Shown: one piece after another, positions 26,096 through 58,481 of the stretch
Numbering within the stretch: position 1 is the first letter of the stretch
How the letters are laid out: each line of letters opens with the position of its first letter
Notes under the pieces: generated by a model
The model's input: only the letters and a program-made list of their open reading frames with translations
Told to the model about the DNA's origin: nothing
Databases searched by the model: none
Position numbers and translations under genes: made by a program
NCBI GenBank assembly: GCA_000165345.1
Contig: CM000433.1
Location: forward strand, 640,001-704,000
Direction: 5' to 3'
DNA: 64,000 bases

Positions 26096-26469
26096 TACTA
26101 TAAATCTTTCAAAACCATTTCTTTTCCAAAATTTAATCACTATTACTGACTTTAATGCTGTCAAATTCCAATTCCCGCCATAACTTTAAGTAATTAATGA
26201 CAGTATTTTCAAAAAAATTTTTTTTAGTAATAATCTGCTCGGAATTATAAAGTTCTAAAAATAAACCAACTCAAATTCATATATTAATTTTTTTAATTGC
26301 TTCATTATAGTGAGAATTCTTTTAATTTGTTATTATTTCTTTCATATATTAAAAAAACAAAATTCTACTAAATTCATTCCATTCTATTATAACAATATTT
26401 AATATTAGATAAAATAAATATTAACTATTTAAAATATTATTTGAATCATTTTTTTTTAAACTATTGCAA

Positions 26470-26600
26470 TTTCATGTGGACGCATGTAATGCATGTCAGT
26501 ATAAAAACAATTATTGCAAAGTTTCTATACCGGTAAAATAAAGTTACGAAATGATTAATACCCTCAAAAGCCCGGTAAAAAAATGACAATTTCCACGTAT
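26470..26600. promoter_or_regulatory. Divergent promoter region (DNAJC21 on minus / BRR2 on plus) with the same composite as at 15810-15915: CATGTGGACGCATG, GCATG, CTATACCGGTA, plus CCCGGTA and TTCCACGTA.
   Basis: tttcatgtggacgcatgtaatgcatgtcagt ... gtttctataccggtaaaataaag ... aaaagcccggtaaaaaaatgacaatttccacgtat. Confidence 0.55.
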
Positions 26601-26855
26601 AGTATAATATAAAAATATTTATTTTTTTAATTATTTTTAAAAATAATTTTAAAAAATTGTTTCTTAAAGCTTGGAAGTTATTTTAATAGTTAGAATTAAT
26701 GCTAAGAAATACTTGAACCAGACCCATCAAACTATTAAAAGTTTAGGTGTTTTTTTTTTTAAAGGTTTACTTTATTTTCATTATTGATTTAATCGGAGAC
26801 GTATATAACGTAAGCTTTAATTTATTGATTGCTATATAAATATTATGTCAAAAAA

Positions 26856-29800
26856 ATGGCTGACGATTATGAAATGTCCAAGAGATTTGGATATAAAGCT
26901 AATAGTAATTTGGTAATTCAAACTAGTCAAAGAAGCAGAGAAAATGTACCAACAGGAGAAGCAGAGAGTTTGGCTGGGAGGATTAAGTATAAGATGGGAG
27001 ATTTGGCTAATAAACGAGCGAAACCTAAAATCAAAGAGAAGAAACATGTTAAAAAAAAATCAAACAGAAGCATTGTTAATGAAAATGACTCGGGTAATAT
27101 CTTAGATTTAGATCTTCGAAGTGCAGGAAACTCCTATACTCCAACTACAATGGAAACAAGACTTGCTTATGATGAGTTATTAGGGATTTTGACAGATATT
27201 CTAGGGTCTCAACCAAGCAAAATATTGGAAGATACAGCTTTTGAATTGCTTATAGTTCTTAAAAACGATGAATTGAGAGATGAGGAAAAATATAAGAAGT
27301 GCAAGGAGATAATTATTCAGCTAAATAATACAACATATAGTGATATATTAGATAAAAGCAGGAGAATTGTTGACTTTACTTTAAATATGGAAGAGATGGA
27401 TGATTCTCAAAATAAGCAAACTGAGGAAGCTTCTGAAGTTGCGGTAATTTTTGATGAAAGTGATTCTGAGAAAAGAAAAGGTGAACTTTCTGATGGAGAT
27501 GATGACAGTGAAAACGATAGTGATACTAGTGAAAGTGATGATGAAGAGGATAACGATTATGATGATGATAATGAATACTACGAAGAATATGAAAACGATG
27601 TCACTTTGGAAATTGGAAAGGACGAGGCTGAGAATTATCTCAATGATGAGAATTATAGTCGTGATAATGATTATAATGAGAATCATGAGCATTCAGGATA
27701 TATTCGATTAAAGAACAAGGATGAATACCTAAAGGAAAATGAAGATCCCGATATTATTGAGATTAGGAAATTGGATGCTTATTGGCTACAAAGAGAGCTA
27801 TATTCACTTTTTCAAGATGCAGATAAATCCTTGGATATGGAAAAGGAGATCATTTCTATTTTGAATTTAGAGGATGATCAAGAGTGTGAGAATTCTCTTG
27901 TTATGATGTTTAATTACGAGCATTTTAATTGGATTAAGAAAGTCTTAAAAAATAGATGGAGTATATATTTTTGTACAATACTTGGTCAGGCACCTTCAGA
28001 TTCTGAAAGGGAAAAGATTATAGATAGAATGAGAAATCATCAAAAAGGATCAGAAGTCTTAGATTTATTTAGTAAGCCTTCATTATGGAAAAACAAGGAT
28101 TCTGATTTTTTTAAATCAATTAATAAGTATATTGAGGAGACTACGGGTGTTATGACTGGTTTAGATGATGAAGATAAGAATCTAATAACTTCTAGAAAAC
28201 CTCATGGAAAACTTTTAGATCTTGAGAGAATATATCAAGAACAGAGTTTGAATTTAAATTTAAGCACAAAAGTAGTACTTCCTCAAGGATCTGAACGTAT
28301 AGAAAATGCTGATTATGATTCTATTACTATTCCTCCATCAAAAAGACAAATTAAGGAAAAGCAAAGATTAATTTCTATTGAAGAGCTTCCAGAGTGGAGT
28401 AGGGAATGCTTTAGATGTGTATCAGTATCATATTTGAATGAAATTCAAAGTAGAGTTTTTGAGACAGCTTTTAAAGATTTTGAAGAAAATTTGTTAGTTT
28501 GTGCTCCAACAGGATCAGGTAAGACTAACATTGCTATGCTTTGCATTTTGAATATAATTTCACAATTTATTGAGCCTCAAAATAATGGAAAATTTACATT
28601 GGACACTTCTAAATTCAAAATTGTATATGTATCACCAATGAAAGCTTTGGTATCGGAACAAGTTGAATCCTTAAGAATTCGACTAAGACCTCTTGGGATT
28701 CTAGTAAATGAGATGACAGGCGATACACGAATTAGTAGATCACTTATGGAAATGACCCAAGTATTCATTACTACACCAGAAAAATTTGATGTTGTCACTA
28801 GAAAATCTACTGATGGTCTTTCTGAAAAACTTAAGTTAATCATATTTGATGAAGTTCATATGTTACACGACTCCAGGGGATCAGTATTGGAAGGAATTGT
28901 TGCAAGATTTAAGAAAAGTTTTACAAGATTAGTGGGATTGTCAGCAACATTACCCAATTTTATAGATGTTGCAGAATTCCTAAATGTTAATCCAAAAAGA
29001 GGTCTTTATCATTTTGGTCCAGAATTCAGACCTGTTCCTCTTTTACAAACATTTATTGGTATTAAAGCAAAGAAGGGGTTCAAGAAGTTGCAATTAATGA
29101 ATAGCCTTGTATATGATACAGTAATTAAAGATATAACAAATCATCAAATTTTGGTTTTTGTCCATTCCAGAAAAGATACAATTCATACTGCAAAATACAT
29201 TAGAGATACTGCAACAGAAAATGGAATGCTTAATTTGTTCTTTTCTGGAAACAATAATGTTTCTAGAGAAATTATTTTGGATGAAGTTAATAATATCAAA
29301 TCGAATAATCTTAAAGAAATATTACCTTGTGGAATTGGTATTCATCATGCAGGATTAGTAAGATCTGATAGAAAAGTAGTTGAAGACTTATTTTCTGATG
29401 GACATATTAAAGTTCTTGTTACCACAGCAACTTTAGCTTGGGGTGTAAATTTACCAGCTCATACTGTAATTATTAAAGGGACTCAAATTTATCAACCAGA
29501 AAGGGGAGAATGGACAGAACTTTCACCTTTGGATATGTTACAAATGATTGGAAGAGGAGGTAGGCCTCAATACGATAATAACGGCCATGGAGTTGTTATA
29601 ACAGATTTTGATCATTTAACTTATTATCTTTCTTTGTTGAATCAACAGCTCAATATAGAATCTCAATTAATTCCAAAATTACCAGATCTTATTAATGCTG
29701 AGATATCTCTTGGTAATGTTCAAAATAAAAGAGATGCTCTTGATTGGATTAAAAAGACTTTCTTGTACATTCGAATAATTAGAAATCCAAGTTTGTATGG

Positions 29801-32800
29801 TCTTGATATTGATGAAATTATTGACAAATCCAGACAAGATAAGGATTTAGTTGCTGAAAATAAGGATGCTTTAGAAGAAGAAAGAGATCTAGCATTCAAG
29901 AATGCAGTTGAGTCTTATTTAATAAAATTGGTAGAAACAGCTCTTGATAGATTAGAGACTTGCAAGCTGATTCAATACAACCATAAAGATGGACATGTTG
30001 GATCATTAATGCTTGGAAGAATTTCCTCTCATTTCTATTTATCACCAGAAACAATTCAAGATCTTGATAAGCAATTACTTCCAAATTTATCTGAAATTCA
30101 ACTTTTTAGATTATTTTCAACTTGTAAAGAATTCAAATTTCTTCTTGTTAGAAATGAAGAAAAGATTGAATTGGAGAAGTTGGTGGATAAAGTTCCGATA
30201 CCTATACAAGGAGTGGGATCCAGCAATGTTGATGGTAATGATAATATTGGCAATATGGTTGATCTTGATACTTTTACTAAAGTTAATGTTTTACTTCAAC
30301 TTTATATAACAGGGTCAAGATGGATTAATGCAAAACTAACTCTTCTCTCTGATCTTCACTTTATTGCTCAATCTGCTCCAAGAATATTCAGAGCTATTTT
30401 TAACTTGGCTATTAAAAGAAGGTGGTCAACGTTGGCTAGAAGATCACTTAAGATTGCAACAGTAAGTTAAAATAGTGAATGAATTATTAACCTGATGTAA
30501 ATTATGTTAATAATATGATGATAAAACGTTTAAAATTCTTGTCACTACCATTGAAATATTCATATTATTATATGAATTTTGAAAATAAATAAACGTAAAA
30601 ATCTGATTAATCAAATTTATCATATTTTCTGAATGGTTTAATAATTTATCACAATAATTCTTTCCTTAATTAATCTATTTTTTAGATGATAGAAAGAAGA
30701 TCTTGGGAGGCTATGCTACCTTTAAGACAATTTAAAGGTATTTCCGAAGAAGTTGTTAAAAGATTAGAAAAGAAAGACATTAACTGGAATACTTACTACA
30801 GCTTTACCAGTAATCAATTGGGTGAAATGCTCAAATCTTCTAAATTAGGTAAGTTTTTTCAATTTTGCTAATTCCACATCTTTTGCATTATTTCCAATAT
30901 AATTTAATAATTAATATTGGAACAGTTTCCCGCCAAATTTTGCATGAAAATGAATTTTGTAAAGATGATGACAAAAAAAAAACAAAATGACAAGCATATG
31001 TCTGAAAGACATAAATTTAAAAATCATGGTGAAATTGATTGATTAGTTATTGAAGTGTTGCCAGTACTTCTTGATTAAAGATGGAAAGCTGCGTTTTCAA
31101 TAGCAATGAAGTAATTTAATCATGATTTTTATTTTTTTATATTGATGTTAAAGTTTTTTTATATTGGTCTGATTTATTCAAATTAACTCTTTGCATGCAG
31201 TTATAAATTTATTTAGGCGGGAAAGCTTTATGCAGTATGTGGGATAGTTAAAAGGTTAATAAGAAATTACTAATTATTTAAAATAGGTCCCGTTTTATAT
31301 AATTTGATAAGAAAAATACCAAGATTGGAGATATCTGGAAATATCTTCCCAATTGACTCGAAAATTTTACAGCTAGATTTGGTTATTAAATCTAATTTTA
31401 TATGGGATAATAAGATTCATGGTCAATCAATGACAGGAGATATTAATACAGATGAAATAAATACTGGCGAAACATTCTGGATTCTAATAGAAGATTCTGA
31501 TGGTGAATATTTATATCTCTCTGACATGATAGTAGTAAGACCATCATTGAATGAGATTTCCAATAATAAAAATGAAAATGAAATATTTATGCAAGATGAA
31601 TATTATTTAAGTTACCAGATATTCTTAGAAAAGAAAGGTGTAAGAAAAAATTATGACCAAGACGATGTAATTCCCCCATTTATATTTGTAAGGGCTATTG
31701 CTGATAAATGGTTGCATTCAGAAACGAGTATTTCTGTACCAGTTGAGAATAAAGTAATATTACCAAATATCCAATATGAAAATACTGAATTATTAGATTT
31801 ACAACCAATTAGAGTAAAAAAAGCATTTTCTGAATCTGGATTTGAGGTGTATTTGAGGAGGATGTTTAGTATTGGAGATAATGATAAAGAATTTGATCAT
31901 CAAAGCTATGATTCATTAAAATTAAATGGCCTTCAGACACAATTGTTTAATTTGATTTACAATTCAGATAAAAGCTTTTATTTATCATCACCTCCTGGAA
32001 ATGGTCAGTTTATTTGTACTTGTATGGGAATTTTGAGGGAGATGAAACAAGATTCAAAATTTCAGTCCAAAAATTTCCAAGTACTATTCTTATCATGTAA
32101 TAAGGATAAAGCTGATTATTATGTTTCTAAGTTCGAGTCAATTTTTGGTGTGAATCAAATAGTTTCTGGTTTGAAAGGAAAGACTCCAGTCCAAATTGAA
32201 CAAGAATTAAAATCCAAGAGTATAATAGTTTCAGATATTGAAACATGGGATAATCATGTTGGAAAAAAACTTACAAAGATACGTGATCTTGTTAAGAAAT
32301 TAAAACTTTTGGTTATTGATGGTATTGAGTTTATTAATAGCAATAATTCAAATGGCTCTGTAATAGAATCAGCTATTTCCAGAATTAGATATATTATTAC
32401 TCCTTTGAATTTGAAAATAAGAATATTTGCATATTCAAAGTGTATTTCTAATGCAAATGAGGTTTCTGAATGGCTGGGAATATCAAGGGAGAATGTATTT
32501 TCTTTTGATCAAAATATATTCAATGAAACTATTAATAAGAAAGTTATTGCCTTTGATTCTTATTATCGTTCAAGCCGTTTTCAAATGATGTTAAAGTATC
32601 TCAAAGATAATATCATTTTGCAGTTAATTAATCAACCTAAAGAAGAAAAGAAAACTTTAATAATATTTGTTTTGGATTATGAATTCTGTTTAAGCTTGGC
32701 TAATGAGCTATCTTTATTTATTGTCTCAGAAAGTGATCAACAAGAAGAAGGTGTTACTGAATATAATTCTTTATTAAAATTCTCAATACACAATGGAATA

Positions 32801-35086
32801 GGTTTTTTGTATAAAAATCAGTCATTTAAGGAAAAAGAGTATATTTTATCACAATTTAATGATGAAAAGATAAATATTATCATAGCTTGTGAAGATATGA
32901 AGAATTCTATTACTCTCAAATTTGATTATGTTGTTGTAATGGATACAAAGAAAATTGATTATGATGATAATAAGGGTTCGCTCATTAATTCAAAAATACG
33001 TAAAACTATTGATTATTCACAATTTGATATACATCAAATGCTAAGTAGATGCAGAAATCAAATGGATCATTATTCCAACTTTATTTTATTGTGTTCTTCA
33101 AATAAACAAGAGTTTTATGAATATACAATTAATAATTCTTTGCCTTTAGAATCAAATATTGATTTTGGTATCATTGATTGCTTAAATACAGAAATTGCTT
33201 TGAAGACTATTAAAACAAAACAAGATACTATAGATTGGATTACTTGGACATTATTTTATAGAAGAATTTCAAAGGTAAGTTGTTTATTTAACTATTAAAG
33301 CGTATATAAATATATATTTATATATGAAGATTCTATATGTGACTATTATTAAAAAAGATATATTATTAATGGGAAAATTAATAATTTGGATTTATTTCAT
33401 TTATTTGATGATGACAATTTGTTTTAATAAATGACAATTTTATATGATTGTAATATTTTTTATATACATATTCGTACTGTCTGAGAGTTATATTCAATTT
33501 ATTAAATTTAAAATAAATCCAATAAAAATTAATAATATACCAACTGTTGTCATATTTTGACACAAATTATTAATAGTTGCATGATCTTGGCGCCAATTTG
33601 GTAATATATATTTATATACATTTAATTAATATAAAAACTTTTTTAATTCACATTTCTTTTTTTATAGAATCCAACTTATTATGGACTAACAGGAAATACA
33701 AGCGTTCATATTTCAGATTACTTATCTGAATATTTGGAGAGCCTTTTGGATTCATTATCTGAAGCAAAATGTATACAAGTTGATGGTAAAGAAAATGATG
33801 AAGATGGTGATAATGAAAAAGAGGAAGAAAATGAAGATGATAATGAAGGAGATGATACGGTGGTATCGCTAAATTTGAGCTTAATTTCAGCATTTTATAA
33901 TTTGAAAGTTTCTACTATTGAATTTATTAGTAAGAATTTGAGCGAAGATGATACCTATGATAGTCTAATTCAGTTAATTTCGATGGTTCCTCAATTACAA
34001 GAAGAATGTCTGATAAGAAAGGGGGATAACCAGATTTTAGATCAATTATGTAGGGATCTGAACTTAAATTTAATGTCAAATACTGAAAGTTCTAAGTCAT
34101 CATCATCTTCAAATTACCAACATAGAAGCTTAACTTCAAGAAAGATCCAAATACTTTTGAATTCATATATAAAACGTCACAAATTTATATTGAGCAGACC
34201 ATTGGTTAAAAATGATTTGATAGATATATTGCGATTTGTAATGGATTTATTATTTGCAATGGTTGATATATCAAGTTCAAATGGCTGGATTAATACTTGT
34301 TTAAGAATAATGGAACTTTCACAAATGTTAGTTCAAGCAATAAGTAACCCAGTAAATGATAAATTAATGCAACTTTCAATGTTAATGAATAAAGATCGAA
34401 TTCGAATATTTAAGGAAAGTGGCGTTACTGATATTTATGATTTAATTAATATGAACGATGATGATAGAGATGAATTATTAACAGAAAAACTTTCTTTAAG
34501 TGAAAAGGAAATATCTCAAATTGCTCAAGTTTGTAATGATTTCCCAATTATAGAAACTGAATATACTATTCTTGGCTGTAATGATTTGAATGAAAAAAAT
34601 AAAAGAAGAAGATTAGATTCAGATAATTCCACTAATACAAAAAATGGAGAAACTCAAAGATTATTTGAATGTAATCCTGAATCTGAACTAACTTTATCTA
34701 TTGATATATCAAGAGATTTTAGTTCTAATGAAGAAGAAGATAATGATTTGAAAAATCAAAATGATATTAAAGATCAAGAAATTTATCCATGTATCGTTAA
34801 GAATTTGAATTATTATCCTCTTGAAAAGGAAGAGAATTGGTGGGTTATCTTAATAAAAATTGCTGTTCCAAATTCATCAAAGGAAAATAAGGATGATGAA
34901 AATGAAGATGAAATTTTGTCTATAAGAAGAATACAACTTAATAAAATAAGTAATCAAGTATTGTTAAAGTTTAACTCAATTGAAGATTCTGGTATGATTA
35001 CAAACTATAAGTTACTGGTTATTTGTGATAGCTACATTGGATGTGACCAAGAATTTATGTTTTCTATCAAGACAGTAGAATCTTAA
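26856..35086 (+). CDS. BRR2: Brr2 / SNRNP200 (U5 snRNP 200 kDa tandem Ski2-like helicase), 4 exons: 26856..30461, 30686..30848, 31287..33274, 33668..35086. Total 7176 nt, 2391 aa.
   Basis: Collinear with human SNRNP200 from [20 protein letters not shown] (human [20 protein letters not shown]) through cassette 1 ([52 protein letters not shown]) to the C-terminus YIGCDQEFMFSIK (human YMGCDQEYKFSV). Three GT..AG introns in phases 0, 1 and 0 were placed by requiring continuity with the human sequence (MLPLRQFKGISEEVVKRLEKK; IRKIPRLEISGN; NPTYYGLTGN). Confidence 0.9.
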
Positions 35087-35326
35087 TATATTTATAGCTT
35101 TCTTTATTATTATTTTTTTAATTATTATTTTACTAAAATTTAACTTCAAATATATATAAACATGTTAGTTTCAAATTTAAATTTTCAGCCTAAATAACTA
35201 TAAATAAATTCTCCATCTATACAAATATGAATATTTCGAATTACGTGTATTCAAATGCATATTTGCATGCATGCATATTTGGCTATTTTATGTGGATAAT
35301 TACACGTATGGCGGGAAATGCAAGAA

Positions 35327-37627: not shown

Positions 37628-37991
37628 TAATATTTCCTAATAATAAATATTAAATTCTTCAAATAAATTTTAAATTTTTTAAAGTTTAATATAAATAACG
37701 CTAATATTAAGTTGTTGATGATTTATCTATAATTTTATTGATACAATATATTTATTAGGGAAAAAAGCATTTAAGTAGATATACTCAATATTGAACTATC
37801 TCTTTATATCACTTTTAATTTTTTTTTTTAATCTTTTTTTGACATTATCATGAAAAAAAAAATAATTCAAAAGGCCCGCCTTTTAAATTTTATTATTGCT
37901 ATACCGGCATAAGGTACCGAATTAAAAAAAAAAAAAAATGGTAAAGATAAATTAAATAAATTTAAAAATGAAAAAAGAATTATAGAAAAAT

Positions 37992-38978
37992 TTAGTATTT
38001 TCTAAGACCACCCATAAAGTTTCGTGGATCTGGTATATTTCCATTAAATTCAGCATTTGAAAAATCGAATCCTGGATTCTGTTTTACATATATAATATAA
38101 ATATTTTAAATAATATTTATTAATTATTTATTTATTTATTTTGTTTAACTTACCTCTCTTTGGAATCTTTCTAACATCATTTGCTTTTTCATATTTTCCT
38201 GTAATAATTTTTCAATTTAATATGAATAGTTAAATCAATTATTAAGTAGAGAAGGGAAAGATAATTAACTCACAATATCAATGGAATTCAAAGAATTTTC
38301 ATTACTTGCAATTACTGAATTCCAAACAGATCCTTTTCTCATCTTTGATAGTTGTACAATGAGTTCATTGTTTTCTGAATAATTTGGGAAAAAATATGGA
38401 AAATAATAAGGTAATGACAATGGTTTAATATTAATTCAGTTATTTTATATTAAAAACAAAAATTAAAGAAAAGAAATCAAATAAACTTACCAATATACCA
38501 TAATGATTCTGAAGTATCAATTGTATCAAAGAGAGTATCCTAATAAATGTGAATTGAATTAATAGAAAAAAGTTAAAGTTAGGTATTAAAATCATGAAAA
38601 GATATCTTAATGATAATACTTTCTTTATTTTAAACTTTTCAACTTACATCAAAAATATCATAGTTGGTAGATTTATTCTGTATTTTCAGCTTATTACACA
38701 TTATCTTTACAGATAAATCTTCTTTATTCATTTTATTTTTACTATTTATATCTTTCCCTGAATTTAAATATACATTTTCTACTGTAAAATATAGAATAAC
38801 TTCGTCTAAATTTTGCTCCCAAGTATATTTTAATCTTCCTATTATAGAAAGAAAGTGGATAATACGATAAATTTAGGTTTTTGATTAATTTCAGTTTACA
38901 CGTAAAATTGCATGCCAAACATATATAAATTAGCAACTTACCAATATCATCAAAACATGGAGCCCGTATTGATTTCAT
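37992..38978 (-). CDS. NudC-like CS-domain protein, 6 exons on the minus strand: 38942..38978, 38648..38838, 38491..38539, 38272..38372, 38154..38198, 37992..38078. Total 510 nt, 169 aa.
   Basis: Spliced product MKSIRAPCFDDIG RLKYTWEQNLDEVILYFTVEN...SLWYIENNELIVQLSKMRKGSVWNSVIASNENSLNSIDI ENMKKQMMLERFQRE NPGFDFSNAEFNGN... It tracks human NudC YRWTQTLSELDLAVPF...SSWLIEDGKV...WWSRLVSSDPEINTKKI...EILKKFMDQHPEMDFSKAKFN. All introns are GTAAGT/GTGAGT...AG, and the phases close to an integral CDS. Confidence 0.7.
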
Positions 38979-44252: not shown

Positions 44253-44666
44253 TAACCTCAGAACAATATTTATTCCATTTTCCTTTTTTTTGCTTTAGAA
44301 CATTTCAAATCTTCAGTTTTACATAAATAATATTATTAATTTATCATTCAATTATTCCGATTTTTTATTTGATTTTTAACCATTTCCTCACTTATTGCAT
44401 GCATGCAGTATTTAAATTAATGTGGTCAGGTCAGGCGCCAAATTTTTATATTAAGAAGAAAATTAAATTATATTTTGTATTAATAATTAATATAATTGTT
44501 TATGTTATAGGTTTGGGTTTAAGTTTAAAAGAAAGAAGCAAGTATAGTTTTTATTAAAGAATATCCAAGATAAATAATTAATATCAGTGTTTTTTTTAAG
44601 AAGATAGACGTATTATGCAAACACAACTTTTGATAATTAGGTTAATTTGAGTGATAATGCGCTGAA

Positions 44667-45005
44667 ATGAGTAATACTGTGAAAACTGTAACTACAATAA
44701 ATGAACAAGTAATTGAAGTAGTATCAAATTTGGAAACAAATAAAATTTCAGAAAAACTAGAGGATATATCCACTAAAGTTAATCAACTATTAACAGGTTA
44801 TATAAGTAAAGAAAATGATGAATCAAGTGTAAGTAGCCAAGATGAATATGAAGGTCAAACAAGTGAAGAAACAAGCCTTAATAAGTGTTTGAACGCCAAA
44901 TACAAAAGCGCAAACTATGAAAGCGAAAAAGAATCAAATCCAGTAGATAATTCAGAAACAACTAGTAGAGGCAAAAGGCATAAAAAAGATACTAGTGATA
45001 AATAA
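44667..45005 (+). CDS. Small Ser/Glu-rich hypothetical protein (112 aa).
   Basis: The ORF is preceded by its own promoter-type cluster (TTGCATGCATGCAG at 44396, GGCGCCAAAT at 44445). This argues it is a real transcription unit rather than a chance ORF. Confidence 0.4.
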   Translation: MSNTVKTVTTINEQVIEVVSNLETNKISEKLEDISTKVNQLLTGYISKENDESSVSSQDEYEGQTSEETSLNKCLNAKYKSANYESEKESNPVDNSETTSRGKRHKKDTSDK

Positions 45006-45125
45006 GAAGTAGAATAAAACTAGTAATAATAAAATTATTAGTCTCCCAAAGACTAGATTGACTATGTGTGTAAGTGTTTTCTACTTTTAGTAACTAAAAC
45101 TCTAAAATACCAAGCTTCTTGATAA

Positions 45126-53578: not shown

Positions 53579-56500
53579 ATGTCCAAGAGTAAATATGAGG
53601 AGGAATGGGAGGAGAAGTTTGCAAAAAATATTGAAGGTAGCAAGATTAGTAGAGATATCAGTGATATTCTTTATGATATTGAGAAAAGTTGTTTAAAGCC
53701 TTTAATATACTTTTTAAAGTCAATCCCTTCTGGGTTTGCTCCACTTCCACTTCCCTCTCTGGAAGCTATATTGGAGCATAGTGAAAACGAATATGTTTCA
53801 TCTTCTTTTGGAGTTGAGAGAAGTATAGAAAGTGAAATTCGAAACTTAGGGACTAATTTCTGGTTCGATATGGTTATGAGTAATGGATCTGGGCCATTCA
53901 ATTCTAAGCAAATTAATTCTCCAAATGTATTTAATCATTGCTTAGTTAATAAGCTTAAACGTGTTTCTCGTAATGATGATTCAAAGGTAAATGATGAAGA
54001 AAAGGAACATGGTTGCGAAAATAGCACTTCTAATAATCATAATGATGATGATATAAATCATGGTAGTAATCAAGTTAATCAAGAAGATGAAAATTCACAA
54101 TATAAGAGTAAAAACTTTCAGATTGTGATTTCTCTTCAACAAATGTTGCATATTTATAGAATTGGAGGTATTAATAATGAAAATGTTTGGACAGCTTTAT
54201 TTGGAGCACAAATAATGGATCATCAAAGTAATAAAGTAGTTATTAAATATATTATGCCTTCATTTCTTTCAAATCAGATTCTAATGGATGCATATACAAA
54301 CATTATACAGATTTCAGAGCCTCAGAATAATTCAATGCAAATTTATATGTATTGTAGAAATATTTTAAAACATTTTTGTACTGATATTATTACTCCCAGA
54401 ATACTTATACATGCAAATATATTCTTATTATGGAATAGTACATTGAAAGATTTTTTCAATAATAAAACATATGATAAATTTCTCTCTGATATATTTAATA
54501 CAACTTCAGATAATTCACCAAAAGATTCAAATAACTCAAGTAATAATCATAGAAGCTCTTCTGATAGTGTCTTTTCTTTATATTCTGGCTTATTAGGTGG
54601 AACATTACCAAGCTTGCTTTTACTCAAAGTAATTGAGGAGGAATTTGCAAAGTTTAGTGTACTTACTCATTTTTTGATTCGAATCTTTGGTTATTTAGAC
54701 AGAAATAGCTGTCATGTATTTTCAAATTCACCAGATCTGAATATTACAGCTTTGTTGTACTTTTATAAGTGTGTATTCTTTCCATTATCATCATCATTTA
54801 CAGCAGCTTTATTAAATATAATTACAGTTGAGAGAGATTTCTTTGTACAAGCTTGTCTTAGAAGTTTATTTTCTCCAAAAATGAGTGACAAAAATGTATT
54901 TGATTGTATTAAAAGAATTGAGGATAGTGAGAAGGAGATAATAGAAATGGATGAAGTTGATGATGTTGAGGAGATTATATTAGGATCTTTTAGAGGATGT
55001 GAAAGAGGAACATCTTTGATTAAATGCAAAAAGGAGACCCATTTTTCTATTGATATGGATAATATTTATAGTAATTTAACAGTTGATAAGTTTCCTGGTG
55101 AAAGTTATAATAGGGTTTTATTTAATGTAATTAATAATATTATTTTAATAATGAGTAATAACTCAAGTAATAAGATTTTTCTAAAAAGGACAAATACTTC
55201 AGGGATTTATGATGACTATTTGGTTTCCAGATTTGGTAATACATCATCTTCATCTTCCTCTTCCTCTTCTTCAAATTCATCATGTTTTTTGGATAATAAA
55301 CTTAAAATGACTCGAGTTCCCAATTTTAAGATTGAGAAAAGAGTAACAGGGTTAAATAGAACATCAATAACAATAGATCCATATAGAGATTTAGAAGAAA
55401 ACCTTTTAGGTTTAAATAAAAGTTGTAAGATTTCTGGATTATTTTGGTTTCCACAGGAAGAAATCGATCAAACAGTATATAAGAATACGGTAGAAGAACC
55501 ATTTTTAAGAGGAACTTTGTATTACTATTATAATAGACTTGATGGTTTATTTGGATTTTTAGATTTGAAGCAAAGTTGTATGTTGGTCAACAGTATTTTA
55601 TTAAACGAAGAAAAAAGAGTTGTGAAAATCTTTCCAAAAAGATCTCATGCAGGATTTTTTAAACTTTTAGAGAGTGTATTGTTTTACTTTTTATCAAGAA
55701 AGCTGTTGGAGTCATATAAACAGAGTGTTTGTGGTATAATATTTCTAAATAAGAAAGAGATGAATGGTAACGATGTGGAATTATTAGATAGAAATGATAA
55801 GAATCTAAAATTTTGTTCTTTATTCAAGGGAAGTATTAGATCTTATATTAATAATGATAATTACTGTGCATTAAGATCAATTTACTTGTTGTTCTTAAAG
55901 GATACTTTAAGATCAAACTCTCATAATATTTTAAATAAGATATTATTAAAATCTGAGACTTGTAGTCGCCACAAGAAGTTAGAATTTCCAATAGGAAATC
56001 TTCAAATAGATATTTCAAAACTATCAAGTTCAATAGGAACAAGCACAAACAACCAAAATGGATCAAATAATAAATCAATTTCTACTGGCTCATCCAGACA
56101 GTCTTGCTTTGTATATTTAGCTTATGTAATATATGAATCAATAATAGAAGATGTCTGGAAAGTAATGAAAATTGAGAATGATGATTTATTAAAGAGCGAG
56201 AAGAATAACTCAATAAGAATGAGTGATAGATTTCTTAGTATTCAAATAATACTATCAATGTTGAAAAGATATAGAAGATTTGTCAAGATTTCTTTTGAAA
56301 ATGACAAAGTATTAAAAAAGATAATACATAGAGCATTCTATGATGGGCTTATATTACATCTCCAAAACTCAATTTCTCCAAACAATTACAATTTAGTTTT
56401 ATTCATGCTTTCCGCATGGATAGCTTCTTTTATTGACAATAGAATAATTCAAATTCACAGTATTTTTTCCCTTTTCAATGATGGAAAGCTTATAAATTGT

Positions 56501-57710
56501 ATAAATAGCTCAAATTGTGGTGGGTTTTCAATCGGTATTCAAGGAAAACCACAACTACAGAAGAAATCAACTCTAAGGGTTTTTTCAAAGTTTGTTTTTG
56601 ATTGGTTTAATAAATTCCTTGTAATTAGGTACTTGAATTACCAGGAATTGAATGAAATTGAAGAGATAATTTCAAATGGAATATTAATTATTGAGAAGAT
56701 TATTGAATCCAAAGACTTCTCAAAGATTTGTAATATTCTCATTAACAATATAATCAATAGTGTTTCTTTAATTAAACTACTTCCAAACTTTGAAGTAATA
56801 ATCTCATTATACAAAGACAGACTTTGTAAAAGATTACTAAATATAAATATGTTAGGCGCCAATCCAAACTTGACAAATGCGCGGGAAATTGCATGCATGG
56901 GGTTACAAGTTTGTTTGGAGCATTTTGTATTACTTTGTTTGGAGGAGAGTAGAGGAGTAGATGGGGACTTTAATTATTTGGGTGGAGAGGCGGGGATTAA
57001 TGACTTACTTTCAGCAATTGAGAATGATCGAAGTTGTTGGATGGAGACATTTCCAGGAAATTTGAGTGTAGAGGGTTACGAGAGTGAGAAAGCGAACAAA
57101 TCTTATTTGAATGATGATCGAATAGTTGGGGATTCAATGAATGTATCATTAAACAGCCTGAGGTCTTTGCTGGAGGATTTTTTGAGATCAATGTTTTCCA
57201 GAAGGAAAATAAATCATGAATTTCAAGTATTTTTAACAAGTAGTTTTAATTGGAGAAAAATGAATAACTATGTACTAACTCCAGTAGTTATGAGCAGATC
57301 TTCCTTTGATGATGAGATTAGTCAGAAGACAAATTCCGAGGAATTTTTGTATGGTTATTGTAATAATAATAAAAATTACAAGGATGTGAATATACCAGAA
57401 AAGATTAAGAAAGAAATTTCAAGATTTGAGTCTGAATATAAAAAAGAATTCCCCCATAGAAAGATTAATTGGCTCTGGGAGAATGGATTTGTAGTTTTGG
57501 AAGCCAAAGGTTTTAAGGCAAAAGTTTTAATTAATAAAAAAGAAGTAATTGGTGAATTAGTCAACTTTACTGTCATTTCTTCATTGTCAGTTTCTATCAT
57601 TTTGCTAAGAATGGGTGAATTTAAAGAAGGCCAGGAAATTACATTGGGAGATTTAGTTGATTATACGTGTTTGCCAATGATTGAGGTTGCGAGAGTATTG
57701 TTGAGTTTGT
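53579..57710 (+). CDS. Cullin-homology-domain protein (cullin family), large with N-rich inserts. The 3' end runs into the N-masked region and cannot be placed.
   Basis: Last readable segment HRKINWLWENGFVVLEAKGFKAKVLINKKEVIGELVNFTVISSLSVSIILLRMGEFKEGQEITLGDLVDYTCLPMIEVARVLLSL fits the cullin homology domain pattern (ELqVStfQmavLLlFN....t..ei...tgi...eLkrtLqSL). A cullin-repeat-like FEVIISLYKDRLCKRLL is also present. 1370+ aa of continuous ORF. Confidence 0.55.
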
Positions 57711-58481
57711 NNNNTNCNANTCNGAANTNNNTNAANNNTTNTNANCNNANTAANNNTCNNTNNAAANTANNNATNCNANTANCNNNNNANNANATTNTAT
57801 CATNNNNNNNNTTNGNNNAATNNAGANNNNNTNNTCNTNNTNTNTNANNNTATTNTNNANANTTGNGANNNNNTNANANTNTNTNANNANAANNTTNNNN
57901 TANGNNNCANNNTNNTTNNNNATNAACNTNCNTTTTTANNNNTNANNTNTTCNTCTTTATGATTNTTAANNTCNNTTNNNATANNCNNNGNTTNNNNAAN
58001 AANTCANNTTTANNNTNNTNANNNNNTTNNNNTTCTNTCNNATTNTNAATANNTATATNAATTANAACGANNTNNNTNANGNANNACNNNTNTATTNAAN
58101 NNTNAATNTTNNNNNTNATTTNNAATAAGNATAAGANNNNANTTTNNATNTNTNTNAANANNTTNTGGNNNTCCNGATTNATTGTNNTANATNNAATNNA
58201 NNNNANTNANTACANNATTNTNATTNTTNTCCAAANNTNATNNNATTANGCNTATCCAATAAAGCAGATGAACAATTNTGATTNTNTTNGNAATTATNAA
58301 TNCAAANCTANCANNTTNATATATAGANNTAANTNNNGTNNANNATNTNACGAGTCTNATAANTTNGANANCTNNANTNNNTTCAATNNTACTTAANANT
58401 NANAAANATTCNNTNNANNNTCAANNTCTNCAATTATACNTTTANNAGTNNTNTNANTNNTNTCNTGTTTAATAATTNCTC

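What the first reader, a model, noticed from the sequence alone, without database searches (positions are those of the whole stretch)
30849..33667. Promoter-type motif clusters inside the two long BRR2 introns
BRR2 introns 2 (30849-31286, 438 nt) and 3 (33275-33667, 393 nt) are unusually long for this intron-poor genome. Both contain the motif combination that elsewhere in the window marks intergenic promoters. Intron 2 has TTTCCCGCCAAATTTTGCATG at 30927 and TGCATGCAG...TTAGGCGGGAAAGC at 31193-31224. Intron 3 has TTGCATGATCTTGGCGCCAATTTGG at 33577. Intron 1 (224 nt) has none. Intron 2 sits exactly between helicase cassette 1 (with its Sec63 unit) and cassette 2. An internal promoter could therefore drive a cassette-2-only transcript. 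The motifs could alternatively be intronic enhancers, or the promoter of an unannotated small or antisense RNA.
Basis: partly seen in the sequence, partly recalled or inferred. Interest (0 to 1): 0.7.

Follow-up and report, generated by a model that had tools for sequence, protein, structure and literature searches.

The report
snoRNA-bearing hairpin introns in BRR2
The long introns of this Cryptosporidium BRR2 gene are long because each carries a small nucleolar RNA at the tip of a long RNA hairpin, and most of the "promoter motifs" in intron 2 are the paired rungs of that hairpin, so an internal promoter is possible but not needed to explain them.

Summary
The motifs are real, at the stated places (±1 nt), and far above chance. 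GGCGGGAA occurs 10 times against 0.12 expected: none in 50 kb of coding sequence, 8 in spacers and 2 in intron 2.

The main feature was missed. All three BRR2 introns carry a conserved box C/D snoRNA:
- Intron 1: guide to 18S GGUAGUGACAAGAA.
- Intron 2: U27/SNORD27-like, targeting 18S A28.
- Intron 3: U41/SNORD41-like, targeting 28S CAGUACGAAUA.

All three snoRNAs are kept in two unnamed relatives and in C. ryanae.

In all 12 introns (four species), the sequence before the snoRNA is complementary to the sequence after it. The introns are therefore predicted to fold as hairpins with the snoRNA at the tip. In intron 2, TTTCCCGCC pairs with GGCGGGAAA and TGCATG pairs with CATGCA, so these words are hairpin rungs.

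The E2F and TGCATG words are kept in the two closer relatives but absent from C. ryanae. The intron 3 E2F word is unpaired yet kept in three species, so a real E2F site there remains plausible.

Intron 2 lies inside the first Sec63 unit, not between the cassettes. No transcription-start data were available. This is ordinary biology with useful new annotation.

The parts
26856..35086 (+). BRR2 (U5 snRNP 200-kDa helicase) coding region. Exons are 26856-30461, 30686-30848, 31287-33274 and 33668-35086. It is the host gene of three snoRNAs.
   Evidence: The spliced ORF is 2391 aa with no internal stop. Pfam domains support the identification. Orthologous exon structure is found in L001, L002 and C. 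ryanae L003.
30462..30685 (+). Intron 1 (224 nt). It has no E2F or TGCATG words.
30515..30606 (+). snoRNA 1, a box C/D snoRNA of 92 nt from box C to box D. Box C AUGAUGA is at 30515-30521. The guide UUCUUGUCACUACC is at 30536-30549. A D'-like UUGA is at 30551-30554. A hairpin is at 30559-30576. Box D CUGA is at 30603-30606.
   Evidence: The guide block is 100% conserved in L001 and L002 and kept in C. ryanae. It has a 14-nt complement to eukaryotic SSU rRNA 463-476, and the nucleotide opposite the fifth guide position is A466 of the reference. The hairpin shows compensatory change, UUCAUAU/AUAUGAA versus UUCACG/CGUGAA.
30849..31286 (+). Intron 2 (438 nt). It interrupts codon 1257, inside the first Sec63 unit.
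   Evidence: The whole-intron MFE is -99.7 kcal/mol, z = -3.86, with 0 of 100 shuffles folding as well.
30855..30946 (+). 5' arm of the intron 2 hairpin. It contains ATTCCACAT (30871-30879), TTGCAT (30883-30888), the E2F-type word TTTCCCGCC (30926-34; with AAA 30926-37) and TGCATG (30941-30946).
   Evidence: Helix list from RNAduplex. Duplex energy is -37.0 kcal/mol against -24.6 +/- 4.7 for dinucleotide shuffles. It ranks 1 of 142 against native spacers.
30956..31182 (+). snoRNA 2, a U27/SNORD27-like box C/D snoRNA of about 227 nt including its terminal stem. The terminal stem is 30956-30963 with 31173-31182. Box C is at 30965-30971. The guide GACAAGCAUAUG is at 30989-31000. Box D' is at 31002-31005. 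A long internal hairpin covers roughly 31006-31141. Box C' UUGAUGU is at 31142-31148. Box D is at 31169-31172.
   Evidence: Rfam SNORD27 matches with an identical guide: 26.8 bits, E 0.14, and in L002 29.3 bits, E 0.084. There is a 12-nt complement to SSU 25-36, target A28. The internal hairpin has 7 compensatory pairs. The terminal stem covaries in four species.
31194..31265 (+). 3' arm of the intron 2 hairpin. It contains CATGCA (31194-31199, within TGCATGCA 31192-31199), GGCGGGAAA (31216-31224), ATGCAG (31230-31235) and ATGTGGGAT (31237-31245).
   Evidence: Each word pairs with its mirror image in the 5' arm. The same helices appear in the consensus fold of three species, with only wobble-compatible changes.
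33275..33667 (+). Intron 3 (393 nt).
   Evidence: The whole-intron MFE is -72.3 kcal/mol, z = -2.99, with 0 of 100 shuffles folding as well.
33282..33395 (+). 5' arm of the intron 3 hairpin.
   Evidence: It pairs with 33513-33638. The pairing includes a perfect 17-bp helix (33302-33318 with 33603-33619), a 12-bp helix (33337-33348 with 33571-33582) and a 10-bp helix (33386-33395 with 33513-33522). Energy is -46.4 kcal/mol against -26.0 +/- 3.0 for shuffles. It ranks 0 of 156 against native spacers.
33406..33484 (+). snoRNA 3, a U41/SNORD41-like box C/D snoRNA. Box C UGAUGAUGA is at 33406-33414. Box C'-like AUGAUUG is at 33444-33450. The guide UAUUCGUACUG is at 33469-33479. Box D CUGA is at 33481-33484.
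   Evidence: The guide plus box D is 100% conserved in L001, L002 and C. ryanae. There is a weak Rfam SNORD41 match with the same guide, 16.3 bits, E 0.66. There is an 11-nt complement to LSU rRNA 2693-2703, with the target U in CAGUACG.
33513..33638 (+). 3' arm of the intron 3 hairpin. TTGCAT (33577-33582) is paired.
33587..33596 (.). Palindromic E2F-type word TTGGCGCCAA. Its core GGCGCC is essentially unpaired in the predicted hairpin. It is the best candidate for a genuine DNA-level E2F site.
   Evidence: Two matches in the window against 0.01 expected. It lies in an internal loop. An E2F word, TTTGGCGGGAAA, is kept at the same distance from box D in L001 and L002: +103, +105 and +108 nt. 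It is absent in C. ryanae.

Best explanation
BRR2 is a snoRNA host gene, and each of its three introns encodes one box C/D snoRNA.

Shown:
- The snoRNAs guide 2'-O-methylation at conserved rRNA sites. Intron 1 targets the A of 18S GGUAGUGAC. Intron 2 targets 18S A28, the U27/SNORD27 site. Intron 3 targets the U of 28S CAGUACGAAUA, the U41/SNORD41 site.
- The rest of each long intron consists of two arms that are complementary to each other.
In intron 2, TTTCCCGCC pairs with GGCGGGAAA, TGCATG with CATGCA, and ATTCCACAT with ATGTGGGAT. In intron 3, TTGCAT pairs with ATGTGA. This explains why the intron 2 words come as mirror-image pairs equidistant from the snoRNA.

Inferred:
- The pre-mRNA folds into a long hairpin with the snoRNA at the tip.
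- This brings the 5' splice site to within about 50 nt of the branch point, as yeast zipper stems do.
- It probably also holds boxes C and D together for snoRNP assembly before the spliced intron is trimmed.
- This accounts for the length and retention of these introns in an intron-poor genome.

Open:
- The rungs are at the same time exact E2F/DP and ApiAP2_1 words, and one E2F word in intron 3 is conserved without being paired.
- A second, DNA-level role as intragenic E2F sites is therefore plausible (about 0.4). It is neither required by nor demonstrated with the present data.
For: snoRNAs:
- Boxes and guides are invariant across species whose surrounding intron sequence has diverged beyond alignment.
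- Rfam matches SNORD27 in the window and independently in L002. Rfam also matches SNORD41. Both matches carry identical guide elements.
- The guides have exact 14-, 12- and 11-nt complements to SSU and LSU rRNA of a reference rDNA unit, with the box-plus-5 rule giving A, A and U.
- The snoRNA 2 terminal stem covaries: cognate leader/trailer duplexes average -4.6 kcal/mol against +0.3 for non-cognate pairs.
- The snoRNA 2 internal hairpin has 7 compensatory pairs.

Hairpin arms:
- All 12 introns (3 introns in 4 species) have flank duplexes more stable than dinucleotide shuffles, with z from -1.6 to -8.4. They are also more stable than reversed or non-cognate flanks, with two exceptions (window and L001 intron 1, tied or slightly exceeded).
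- Against native spacers of the same window, intron 2 ranks 1 of 142 and intron 3 ranks 0 of 156.
- Arms co-evolve. C. ryanae arms pair only with themselves, and in intron 3 every cognate pair is the best in its row and column.
- Whole-intron MFE z-scores are -3.9 and -3.0.
- The helix list shows each intron 2 word paired with its mirror image.
- In L001 the two changes that break the DNA motifs (TTTGCTGCC and TATGCA) keep pairing as G.U.
- The 'G-box-like' GTGGGGAG of L001 and L002 pairs with a pyrimidine tract near the 5' splice site.

Motifs are dispensable for the snoRNAs:
- Intron 1, and all three C. ryanae introns, have the snoRNA and arms but no E2F or TGCATG words.

Literature:
- C. 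parvum has 23 intronic ncRNAs, including 4 snoRNAs. The authors propose that such RNAs keep introns in place (PMC9465071).
Against: - All structure evidence is predicted folding on four species; there is no probing or expression data.
- Intron 1 as a whole does not fold better than shuffles (z = -0.66).
- Pairing alone does not explain why the GC-rich rungs are exact E2F/DP and ApiAP2_1 consensus words. It also does not explain why these rungs are sequence-conserved in three species while distal rungs covary.
- All GC-rich hexamers in the flanks are E2F-type.
- The intron 3 E2F word is unpaired in the window and only weakly paired in L001 and L002, yet it is kept at +103 to +108 nt from box D.
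- That word switches between the GGCGCC and GGCGGGAA forms, exactly as the canonical E2F site does upstream of the neighbouring divergent gene (window 26172 versus L001 1283).
- Rfam scores are far below the gathering thresholds: 27-29 against 52 bits for SNORD27, and 16 against 41 bits for SNORD41.
Confidence: 0.6

Rival explanations
1. The clusters are genuine DNA-level E2F/DP plus ApiAP2 binding modules, that is, intragenic promoters or enhancers. They would start sense transcripts lacking the 5' part of BRR2 (from about 70-95 nt upstream of exons 3 and 4), or antisense lncRNAs. Alternatively they would boost E2F-coordinated transcription of the host gene.
For: - The words are exact consensus matches and are excluded from coding sequence.
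- E2F is the dominant motif of open chromatin in C. parvum (bioRxiv 10.1101/2025.01.17.633476).
- E2F/DP1 and ApiAP2_1 are the top motifs upstream of C. parvum lncRNAs (PMC7840661).
- A similar cluster sits in the 3'/3' spacer after BRR2 and is conserved in L001 and L002.
- The intron 3 E2F word is unpaired, positionally conserved, and shows the same form-switching as a canonical promoter site.
- The intron 2 downstream cluster and the intron 3 cluster lie 61-102 nt (E2F words 70-95 nt) before the next exon in all three species.
Against: - No transcription-start evidence was available.
- C. ryanae lacks the words in the same introns, although it uses E2F words at neighbouring promoters.
- In L001 both intron 2 sites are poor E2F matches but still pair.
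- The mirror-image, equidistant layout in intron 2 is what a hairpin predicts.
- A cassette-2-only product is not what a start in intron 2 would give, because the intron lies inside Sec63 unit 1 and the first in-frame Met lies about 48 codons into exon 3.
- The orientation of GGCGGGAA relative to known 5' ends is only 5:2, so it is uninformative.
Confidence: 0.3
2. The upstream intron 2 cluster (E2F word 38 nt and TGCATG 24 nt before box C) is the promoter of an independently transcribed snoRNA 2 gene that happens to lie in an intron.
For: - The distance to box C is fixed in three species: TGCATG at -24, -28 and -26 nt, and the E2F word at -38, -50 and -42 nt.
- E2F words are over-represented upstream of ribosomal protein genes in C. 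parvum (PMC12246861), so E2F control of a ribosome-biogenesis RNA would make sense.
Against: - snoRNA 1, snoRNA 3 and all C. ryanae copies have no upstream cluster.
- An identical mirror-image cluster lies downstream of box D.
- The terminal stem plus arms fit ordinary intron processing.
Confidence: 0.1
3. The motif matches in the introns are chance occurrences with no function.
For: Introns are non-coding and AT-rich, so short words can arise by chance. TGCATG alone occurs 47 times in the window.
Against: - GGCGGGAA is expected 0.12 times in the whole window and occurs twice within 300 nt.
- The words are kept at fixed offsets in three species whose flanking intron sequence is otherwise diverged.
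Confidence: 0.02

Closest known systems
SNORD27 / U27 (yeast snR74), a box C/D snoRNA guiding 18S Am27/Am28 (Rfam RF00086)
   Same: The antisense element AAAAUGACAAGCAUAUGU followed by CUGA is identical to the family consensus. It has a box C and the same predicted target. It is intron-encoded, as in vertebrates.
   Different: It is about 210 nt from box to box because of a roughly 135-nt structured insert between D' and C', against about 70 nt in the family. It scores 27-29 bits against a gathering score of 52. Its second guide (before box D) has no recognised target.
SNORD41 / U41, a box C/D snoRNA guiding a 28S Um (Rfam RF00588)
   Same: The guide UAUUCGUACUG plus CUGA matches the consensus, with an 11-nt complement to LSU CAGUACGAAUA.
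   Different: It scores only 16.3 bits against a gathering score of 41. The 5' half is unrelated to the family, and its length varies from 77 to 150 nt among species.
Intronic ncRNAs and snoRNAs of Cryptosporidium parvum (Li et al. 2022, PMC9465071)
   Same: Small structured RNAs are encoded in the rare introns and conserved across the genus. The authors proposed them as the reason those introns persist.
   Different: That paper's text and a 2025 review list only 5 C/D snoRNAs and no U27- or U41-type snoRNA. I could not check whether the BRR2 intron RNAs are among the 19 unnamed intronic ncRNAs, because the supplement is not held. The hairpin-arm architecture is not described there.
Zipper stems of long Saccharomyces cerevisiae introns (RPS17B; PMC2536676, PMC12350175)
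   Same: Complementary segments just after the 5' splice site and just before the branch point shorten the effective intron. The outer helices here leave linkers totalling 51 nt (intron 2) and 54 nt (intron 3), within the 42-85 nt window defined for yeast. As in yeast, the sequence is poorly conserved while the pairing is kept.
   Different: The arms here are much longer, about 70-125 nt with many helices, and they enclose a snoRNA. Branch points are only inferred from yTAAT words. There is no probing or splicing data.
External stems flanking intronic box C/D snoRNAs in vertebrates
   Same: Intron sequences flanking the snoRNA pair with each other and juxtapose boxes C and D for snoRNP assembly.
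   Different: The known external stems are short and immediately adjacent to the boxes. Here they extend across almost the whole intron.
E2F/DP1 and ApiAP2_1 (TGCATGCA) promoter motifs of Cryptosporidium (PMC3734150, PMC7840661, PMC12246861)
   Same: The words are the same and co-occur within 10-30 nt. They are confined to non-coding DNA.
   Different: They lie inside introns of a transcribed gene. In intron 2 they are arranged as a base-pairing inverted pair around a snoRNA. They are absent from the orthologous C. ryanae introns. No evidence of binding or initiation is available.

Membership tests
Box C/D snoRNA | Box C (RUGAUGA) near the 5' end and box D (CUGA) near the 3' end | tested here: met
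   AUGAUGA at 30515, 30965 and 33408. CUGA at 30603, 31169 and 33481. Both are invariant in four species.
Box C/D snoRNA | Terminal stem that brings boxes C and D together | tested here: met
   snoRNA 2 has an 8-bp stem with different, mutually complementary sequences in the window, in L001/L002 and in C. ryanae: cognate -2.0 to -6.3 kcal/mol against a non-cognate mean of +0.3. snoRNA 3 has a clear stem in C. ryanae (-8.3) and L002 (-3.9) but a weak one in the window. snoRNA 1 has a weak stem. Long external arms are present in all.
Box C/D snoRNA | Antisense element of at least 10 nt ending 1-2 nt before box D or D', complementary to rRNA, with the target opposite the fifth nucleotide | tested here: met
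   There are 14-nt (SSU 463-476), 12-nt (SSU 25-36) and 11-nt (LSU 2693-2703) exact complements in a reference eukaryotic rDNA, contig L004. The rRNAs on that contig were delimited by Rfam. The organism's own rRNA was not available.
Box C/D snoRNA | Stable expressed RNA bound by fibrillarin, Nop56, Nop58 and Snu13, with methylation at the predicted site | not testable with these tools
   No expression or modification data were accessible.
Rfam SNORD27 (RF00086) | Covariance-model score at or above the gathering threshold (52 bits) | tested here: not met
   26.8 bits in the window and 29.3 bits in L002, and no hit in the gathering-threshold scan. It is filed as a functional equivalent by guide and target, not as a scored family member.
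Rfam SNORD41 (RF00588) | Covariance-model score at or above the gathering threshold (41 bits) | tested here: not met
   16.3 bits, E 0.66. Only the guide and box D half aligns.
Zipper stem (intron-shortening stem) | Stem starting at least 10 nt after the 5' splice site and ending at least 20 nt before the branch point, with total linker length of 42-85 nt (PMC12350175) | tested here: met
   For the intron 2 helix 30871-79 with 31237-45, the linkers are 22 + 29 = 51 nt. For the intron 3 helix 33302-18 with 33603-19, they are 27 + 27 = 54 nt. Inferred branch points are CTAAT at 31270 and TTAAT at 33643. Both the structure and the branch points are predictions.
Zipper stem (intron-shortening stem) | The stem is needed for efficient splicing | not testable with these tools
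   This requires mutagenesis with compensatory rescue.
E2F/DP-type promoter element | Match to the Cryptosporidium E2F consensus, with restriction to non-coding DNA | tested here: met
   TTTCCCGCCAAA, GGCGGGAAA and TTGGCGCCAA are present. The 8-mer occurs 0 times in 49.9 kb of coding sequence. The consensus is taken from PMC12246861.
E2F/DP-type promoter element | Conserved at the orthologous position in related species | tested here: inconclusive
   It is kept in L001 and L002, strongly in intron 3 but degenerate in L001 intron 2. It is absent from all C. ryanae BRR2 introns, while the neighbouring promoter site is kept there.
E2F/DP-type promoter element | Lies in open chromatin just upstream of a transcription start, or is bound by E2F/DP | not testable with these tools
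   No ATAC, cap or TSS, or binding data for this locus could be reached. The literature gives only genome-wide statements.

The most novel reading that the evidence does not exclude
The same short words are used twice. As DNA they are genuine E2F/DP and ApiAP2 sites that make introns 2 and 3 intragenic promoters or enhancers. These would launch E2F-coordinated snoRNA-precursor, 5'-truncated BRR2 or antisense transcripts, in step with ribosome biogenesis. As RNA they are the GC-rich rungs of the hairpin that presents the snoRNA and zips the intron for splicing.
Probability: 0.15. Interest if true: 0.65.

Novelty: new member of a known kind. Interest (0 to 1): 0.4.

Why it matters
- It adds three box C/D snoRNAs with assignable rRNA targets to a genus in which a 2025 review lists only five.
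- It gives a concrete reason why an intron-poor parasite keeps three introns, two of them unusually long, in an essential spliceosomal helicase gene.
- It gives a testable model (snoRNA at the tip of an intron-spanning hairpin) for how a machinery used to introns of about 86 nt handles introns of about 400 nt.
- It warns that E2F and TGCATGCA word matches in Cryptosporidium non-coding DNA are not automatically promoters.
- It flags an annotation error: BRR2 is split into three genes in C. ryanae.
- If the E2F words also work at the DNA level, this would be a compact example of dual DNA and RNA use of the same sequence.

Tried and rejected
- The Rfam gathering-threshold scan of the whole window gave nothing. 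The snoRNAs surfaced only in E-value scans, and intron 1 has no informative Rfam match.
- I looked for an independently transcribed snoRNA with the same flanking words as a comparison. The only intergenic C/D-like candidate (38050-38180, minus strand) lies in a small spliced minus-strand gene and was dropped.
- The orientation of GGCGGGAA relative to neighbouring 5' gene ends is 5 forward and 2 reverse, too weak to infer a firing direction.
- I tried to find out whether the BRR2-intron RNAs are already in the C. parvum ncRNA catalogue. The supplement is not held, and the gene identifiers lead only to the review table. Searches for 'Cryptosporidium BRR2' and for Cryptosporidium TSS mapping gave nothing usable.
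- The guides before box D of snoRNA 1 and snoRNA 2 have no complement of 10 nt or more in the reference rRNA. An 11-nt LSU complement in the window's snoRNA 3 D'-side is not conserved and was disregarded.
- A first version of the arm test with mononucleotide shuffles was repeated with dinucleotide shuffles, reversed arms, non-cognate arms, cross-species arms and native spacers, to exclude an AT-richness artefact.
- The idea that only short external stems (TGCATG and E2F rungs) matter was replaced by the whole-arm model, after snoRNA 2 turned out to have its own covarying terminal stem.

Full report
**Observation.** The gene model holds. Joining 26856-30461, 30686-30848, 31287-33274 and 33668-35086 gives an open 2391-aa protein. 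Pfam finds Helicase_PWI, DEAD, Helicase_C, winged-helix and Sec63 domains. The three introns start with GTAAGT, end with AG, and measure 224, 438 and 393 nt. The quoted words are at 30926-30946, 31192-31200, 31213-31226 and 33577-33601. Intron 1 has none.

**Enrichment.** The words are not chance. GGCGGGAA occurs 10 times against 0.12 expected, TGCATGCA 9 times against 0.58, and TTGGCGCCAA 2 times against 0.01. GGCGGGAA is absent from 49.9 kb of coding sequence, occurs 8 times in 13 kb of spacers, and occurs twice in intron 2. The clusters mark most 5' spacers. They also occur in three 3'/3' spacers and once inside an ORF.

**One wrong statement.** The first Sec63 match spans aa 1051-1407, and intron 2 splits codon 1257. 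The intron therefore lies inside the Sec63 unit of cassette 1, not between the cassettes.

**Related loci.**
- Protein searches found two unnamed relatives in Logan assemblies: L001 (SRR31860986) and L002 (SRR31861040), 74-76% identical over exon 3.
- They also found Cryptosporidium ryanae (L003, GCA_009792415.2), 57% identical. This fixes the genus.
- All three introns are at the same positions in all four species.
- In C. ryanae the public annotation splits BRR2 into three genes.

**What the introns contain.** Outside a few blocks the intron sequences are diverged beyond alignment, but each intron has an invariant block with box C/D snoRNA anatomy.
- Intron 1 (30515-30606): AUGAUGA, then the guide UUCUUGUCACUACC next to a D'-like UUGA, then a hairpin with compensatory changes, then CUGA.
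- Intron 2 (30965-31172 from box to box): AUGAUGA, then AAAAUGACAAGCAUAUGU-CUGA, a long internal hairpin, UUGAUGU and CUGA. An E-value Rfam scan matched SNORD27 with an identical guide in the window (26.8 bits, E 0.14). It did so independently as the only hit in L002 (29.3 bits, E 0.084).
- Intron 3 (33406-33484): UGAUGAUGA ... AUAUUCGUACUGU-CUGA, with a weak SNORD41 match through the same guide.

**rRNA targets.** I retrieved complete eukaryotic rDNA units from metagenomes and delimited the rRNAs with Rfam.
- The snoRNA 1 guide has a 14-nt exact complement at SSU 463-476, and the fifth-nucleotide rule points to the A of GGUAG.
- The snoRNA 2 guide has a 12-nt complement at SSU 25-36, pointing to A28.
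- The snoRNA 3 guide has an 11-nt complement at LSU 2693-2703, pointing to the U of CAGUACG.
- By my own count, the snoRNA 1 site corresponds to human 18S A512. That equivalence rests on my own knowledge and was not checked with a tool.

**Structure of snoRNA 2.** Its terminal stem has a different, self-complementary sequence in each lineage:
- UUUGUAAA with UUUAuuCAAA in the window.
- UUUAUCAA with UUGAUAAA in L001 and L002.
- GAUAAAU with AUUUAUC in C. ryanae.

Cognate duplexes average -4.6 kcal/mol, against +0.3 for non-cognate pairs. Its internal hairpin shows 7 compensatory pairs. It is therefore one RNA of about 227 nt.

**Conservation of the motifs.** In L001 and L002 the words are present at almost fixed offsets.

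| Intron | Word | Reference point | Window / L001 / L002 |
|---|---|---|---|
| 2 | TGCATG | before box C | 24 / 28 / 26 nt |
| 2 | E2F-type word | before box C | 38 / 50 / 42 nt |
| 2 | TGCATG(CA) | after box D | 20 / 19 / 17 nt |
| 2 | GGCGGG | after box D | 44 / 40 / 41 nt |
| 2 | TGTGGG | after box D | 65 / 64 / 65 nt |
| 3 | E2F word | after box D | 103 / 105 / 108 nt |

The intron 3 E2F word is TTGGCGCCAA in the window and TTTGGCGGGAAA in the relatives. C. ryanae has none of these words in its BRR2 introns or in the spacer after BRR2. It does have E2F-type words at the neighbouring promoters.

**The hairpin.** The mirror-image, equidistant layout in intron 2 suggested RNA pairing, so I tested the arms.
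- Duplex energies beat dinucleotide shuffles, with z from -1.6 to -8.4. Examples: window intron 2, -37.0 against -24.6 +/- 4.7; window intron 3, -46.4 against -26.0 +/- 3.0; C. ryanae intron 2, -48.3 against -23.6; C. ryanae intron 3, -68.7 against -37.9.
- They also beat reversed arms and non-cognate arms of the same species, with two exceptions. For window intron 1, one non-cognate pairing scored -15.6 against -15.0 for the cognate pair. For L001 intron 1, the reversed arm (-15.4) and a non-cognate pairing (-15.3) matched the cognate value of -15.3.
- They beat native spacers of the window: intron 2 ranks 1 of 142, intron 3 ranks 0 of 156, and intron 1 ranks 5 of 209.
- In cross-species tests the arms co-evolve. 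C. ryanae arms pair only with themselves, and every cognate intron 3 pair is the best in its row and column.
- Whole-intron folds give z = -3.9 for intron 2, -3.0 for intron 3 and -0.7 for intron 1.

**Which words are rungs.** In window intron 2:
- TGCATG 30941-46 pairs with CATGCA 31194-99.
- TTTCCCGCC 30926-34 pairs with GGCGGGAAA 31216-24.
- TTGCAT 30883-88 pairs with ATGCAG 31230-35.
- ATTCCACAT 30871-79 pairs with ATGTGGGAT 31237-45.

In intron 3, TTGCAT is part of a 12-bp helix and there is a perfect 17-bp helix (33302-18 with 33603-19). The E2F core GGCGCC sits in an internal loop. In L001 the two substitutions that spoil the DNA motifs (TTTGCTGCC and TATGCA) keep G.U pairs. The G-rich GTGGGGAG of the relatives pairs with a pyrimidine tract near the 5' splice site.

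**Effective intron length.** With inferred branch points (CTAAT at 31270 and TTAAT at 33643), the outer helices leave only 51 and 54 nt of linker. This is within the 42-85 nt range that defines yeast zipper stems (PMC12350175).

**Interpretation.**
- Shown: three conserved C/D snoRNAs with canonical rRNA targets, and co-evolving complementary arms.
- Shown: the intron 2 words are paired partners, and the words are dispensable for the snoRNAs (intron 1 and C. ryanae).
- Inferred: the hairpin shortens the effective intron and presents the snoRNA for snoRNP assembly, and the snoRNAs are released from the spliced intron.
- Literature: this fits the proposal that ncRNAs keep the rare Cryptosporidium introns in place (PMC9465071).

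**What remains unexplained.**
- The GC-rich rungs are exact E2F/DP and ApiAP2_1 words, and they are sequence-conserved while distal rungs covary.
- The unpaired intron 3 E2F word is kept in three species.
- That word switches between the GGCGCC and GGCGGGAA forms, just as the canonical E2F site upstream of the neighbouring divergent gene does (window 26172 versus L001 1283).
- E2F is the dominant motif in open chromatin. E2F and AP2_1 are also the top motifs upstream of C. parvum lncRNAs.
- A DNA-level role is therefore plausible. I put binding or regulation at about 0.4, an internal TSS at about 0.25, and a cassette-2-only mRNA at 0.1 or less.
- No TSS, cap, ATAC or RNA-seq data were reachable, so this cannot be settled here.

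**Comparison and novelty.**
- By guide and target the RNAs are equivalents of U27/SNORD27 and U41/SNORD41. They fail the Rfam gathering scores, so I do not file them as scored family members.
- The arms work like yeast zipper stems and like the external stems of vertebrate intronic snoRNAs, but they span almost the whole intron.
- A 2025 review lists only five C/D snoRNAs for C. parvum, none of the U27 or U41 type. I could not check whether these loci are among the 19 unnamed intronic ncRNAs of Li et al..

**Verdict.** This is a new member of a known kind. It is ordinary biology with useful annotation value and one open question, the dual-use words. Interest is 0.4.

Noticed in passing
window 56855-56897: A cluster of GGCGCCAA, CGCGGGAA and TGCATGCATG lies inside the continuous 1605-aa ORF 53579-58396 (+). 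These are promoter-type words within coding sequence, which is rare in this window.
   Followed up: no
window 35264-35317; L001 10508-10552; L002 5211-5257: The 240-bp 3'/3' spacer between BRR2 and the minus-strand PUF/NOP9-like gene carries TGCATGCATGCA ... ATGTGGA ... GGCGGGAA. It is conserved in both closer relatives and absent in C. ryanae. It is a candidate promoter of an antisense lncRNA over the NOP9-like gene.
   Followed up: partly
window 26468-26605; L001 1617-1760; L003 about 4786-4900: A block of about 130 nt, 250-390 nt upstream of the BRR2 start codon, is about 80% identical between the window and L001. It contains ATGTGGACGCATGTAATGCATG, two CCGGTAAAA repeats and CAATTTCCACGTA, and is partly kept in C. 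ryanae. There is also an out-of-frame upstream ATG at 26845. It could be the core promoter or 5' UTR, or another ncRNA.
   Followed up: partly
L003 5196-13755 (C. ryanae VHLK02000036.1): The public C. ryanae annotation splits BRR2 into three separate genes (1184 aa; 641 aa, FG386_000195 'hypothetical protein'; and 454 aa). It omits exon 2 and the start of exon 3 and treats the snoRNA introns as intergenic.
   Followed up: yes
window about 37990-38400, minus strand: Conserved blocks bounded by ACTTACC (GGTAAGT on the minus strand) indicate a small multi-exon gene in the 1.6-kb spacer that the ORF list does not show. An E2F-like GCCCGCC at about 37876 is conserved in L001 and L002.
   Followed up: no
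window 44396-44441: TGCATGCATGCA plus GGCGCCAA lie in an 873-bp 3'/3' spacer (44253-45125). This is another promoter-type cluster with no annotated 5' end next to it.
   Followed up: no
window 26475, 35290, 31237; L001 6088, 8804; L002 735, 3457: The word (A/G)TGTGG recurs next to TGCATG and E2F words at the BRR2 promoter, in the BRR2/NOP9 spacer and in introns 2 and 3. It may be a third cis-element, or simply a favoured rung sequence.
   Followed up: partly
window 33414-33431: The 5' half of the window's snoRNA 3 has an 11-nt complement to LSU rRNA 2111-2121 (AUUAAAACAAA), next to a D'-like AUGA. It is not conserved in the three relatives, so it is probably fortuitous.
   Followed up: partly
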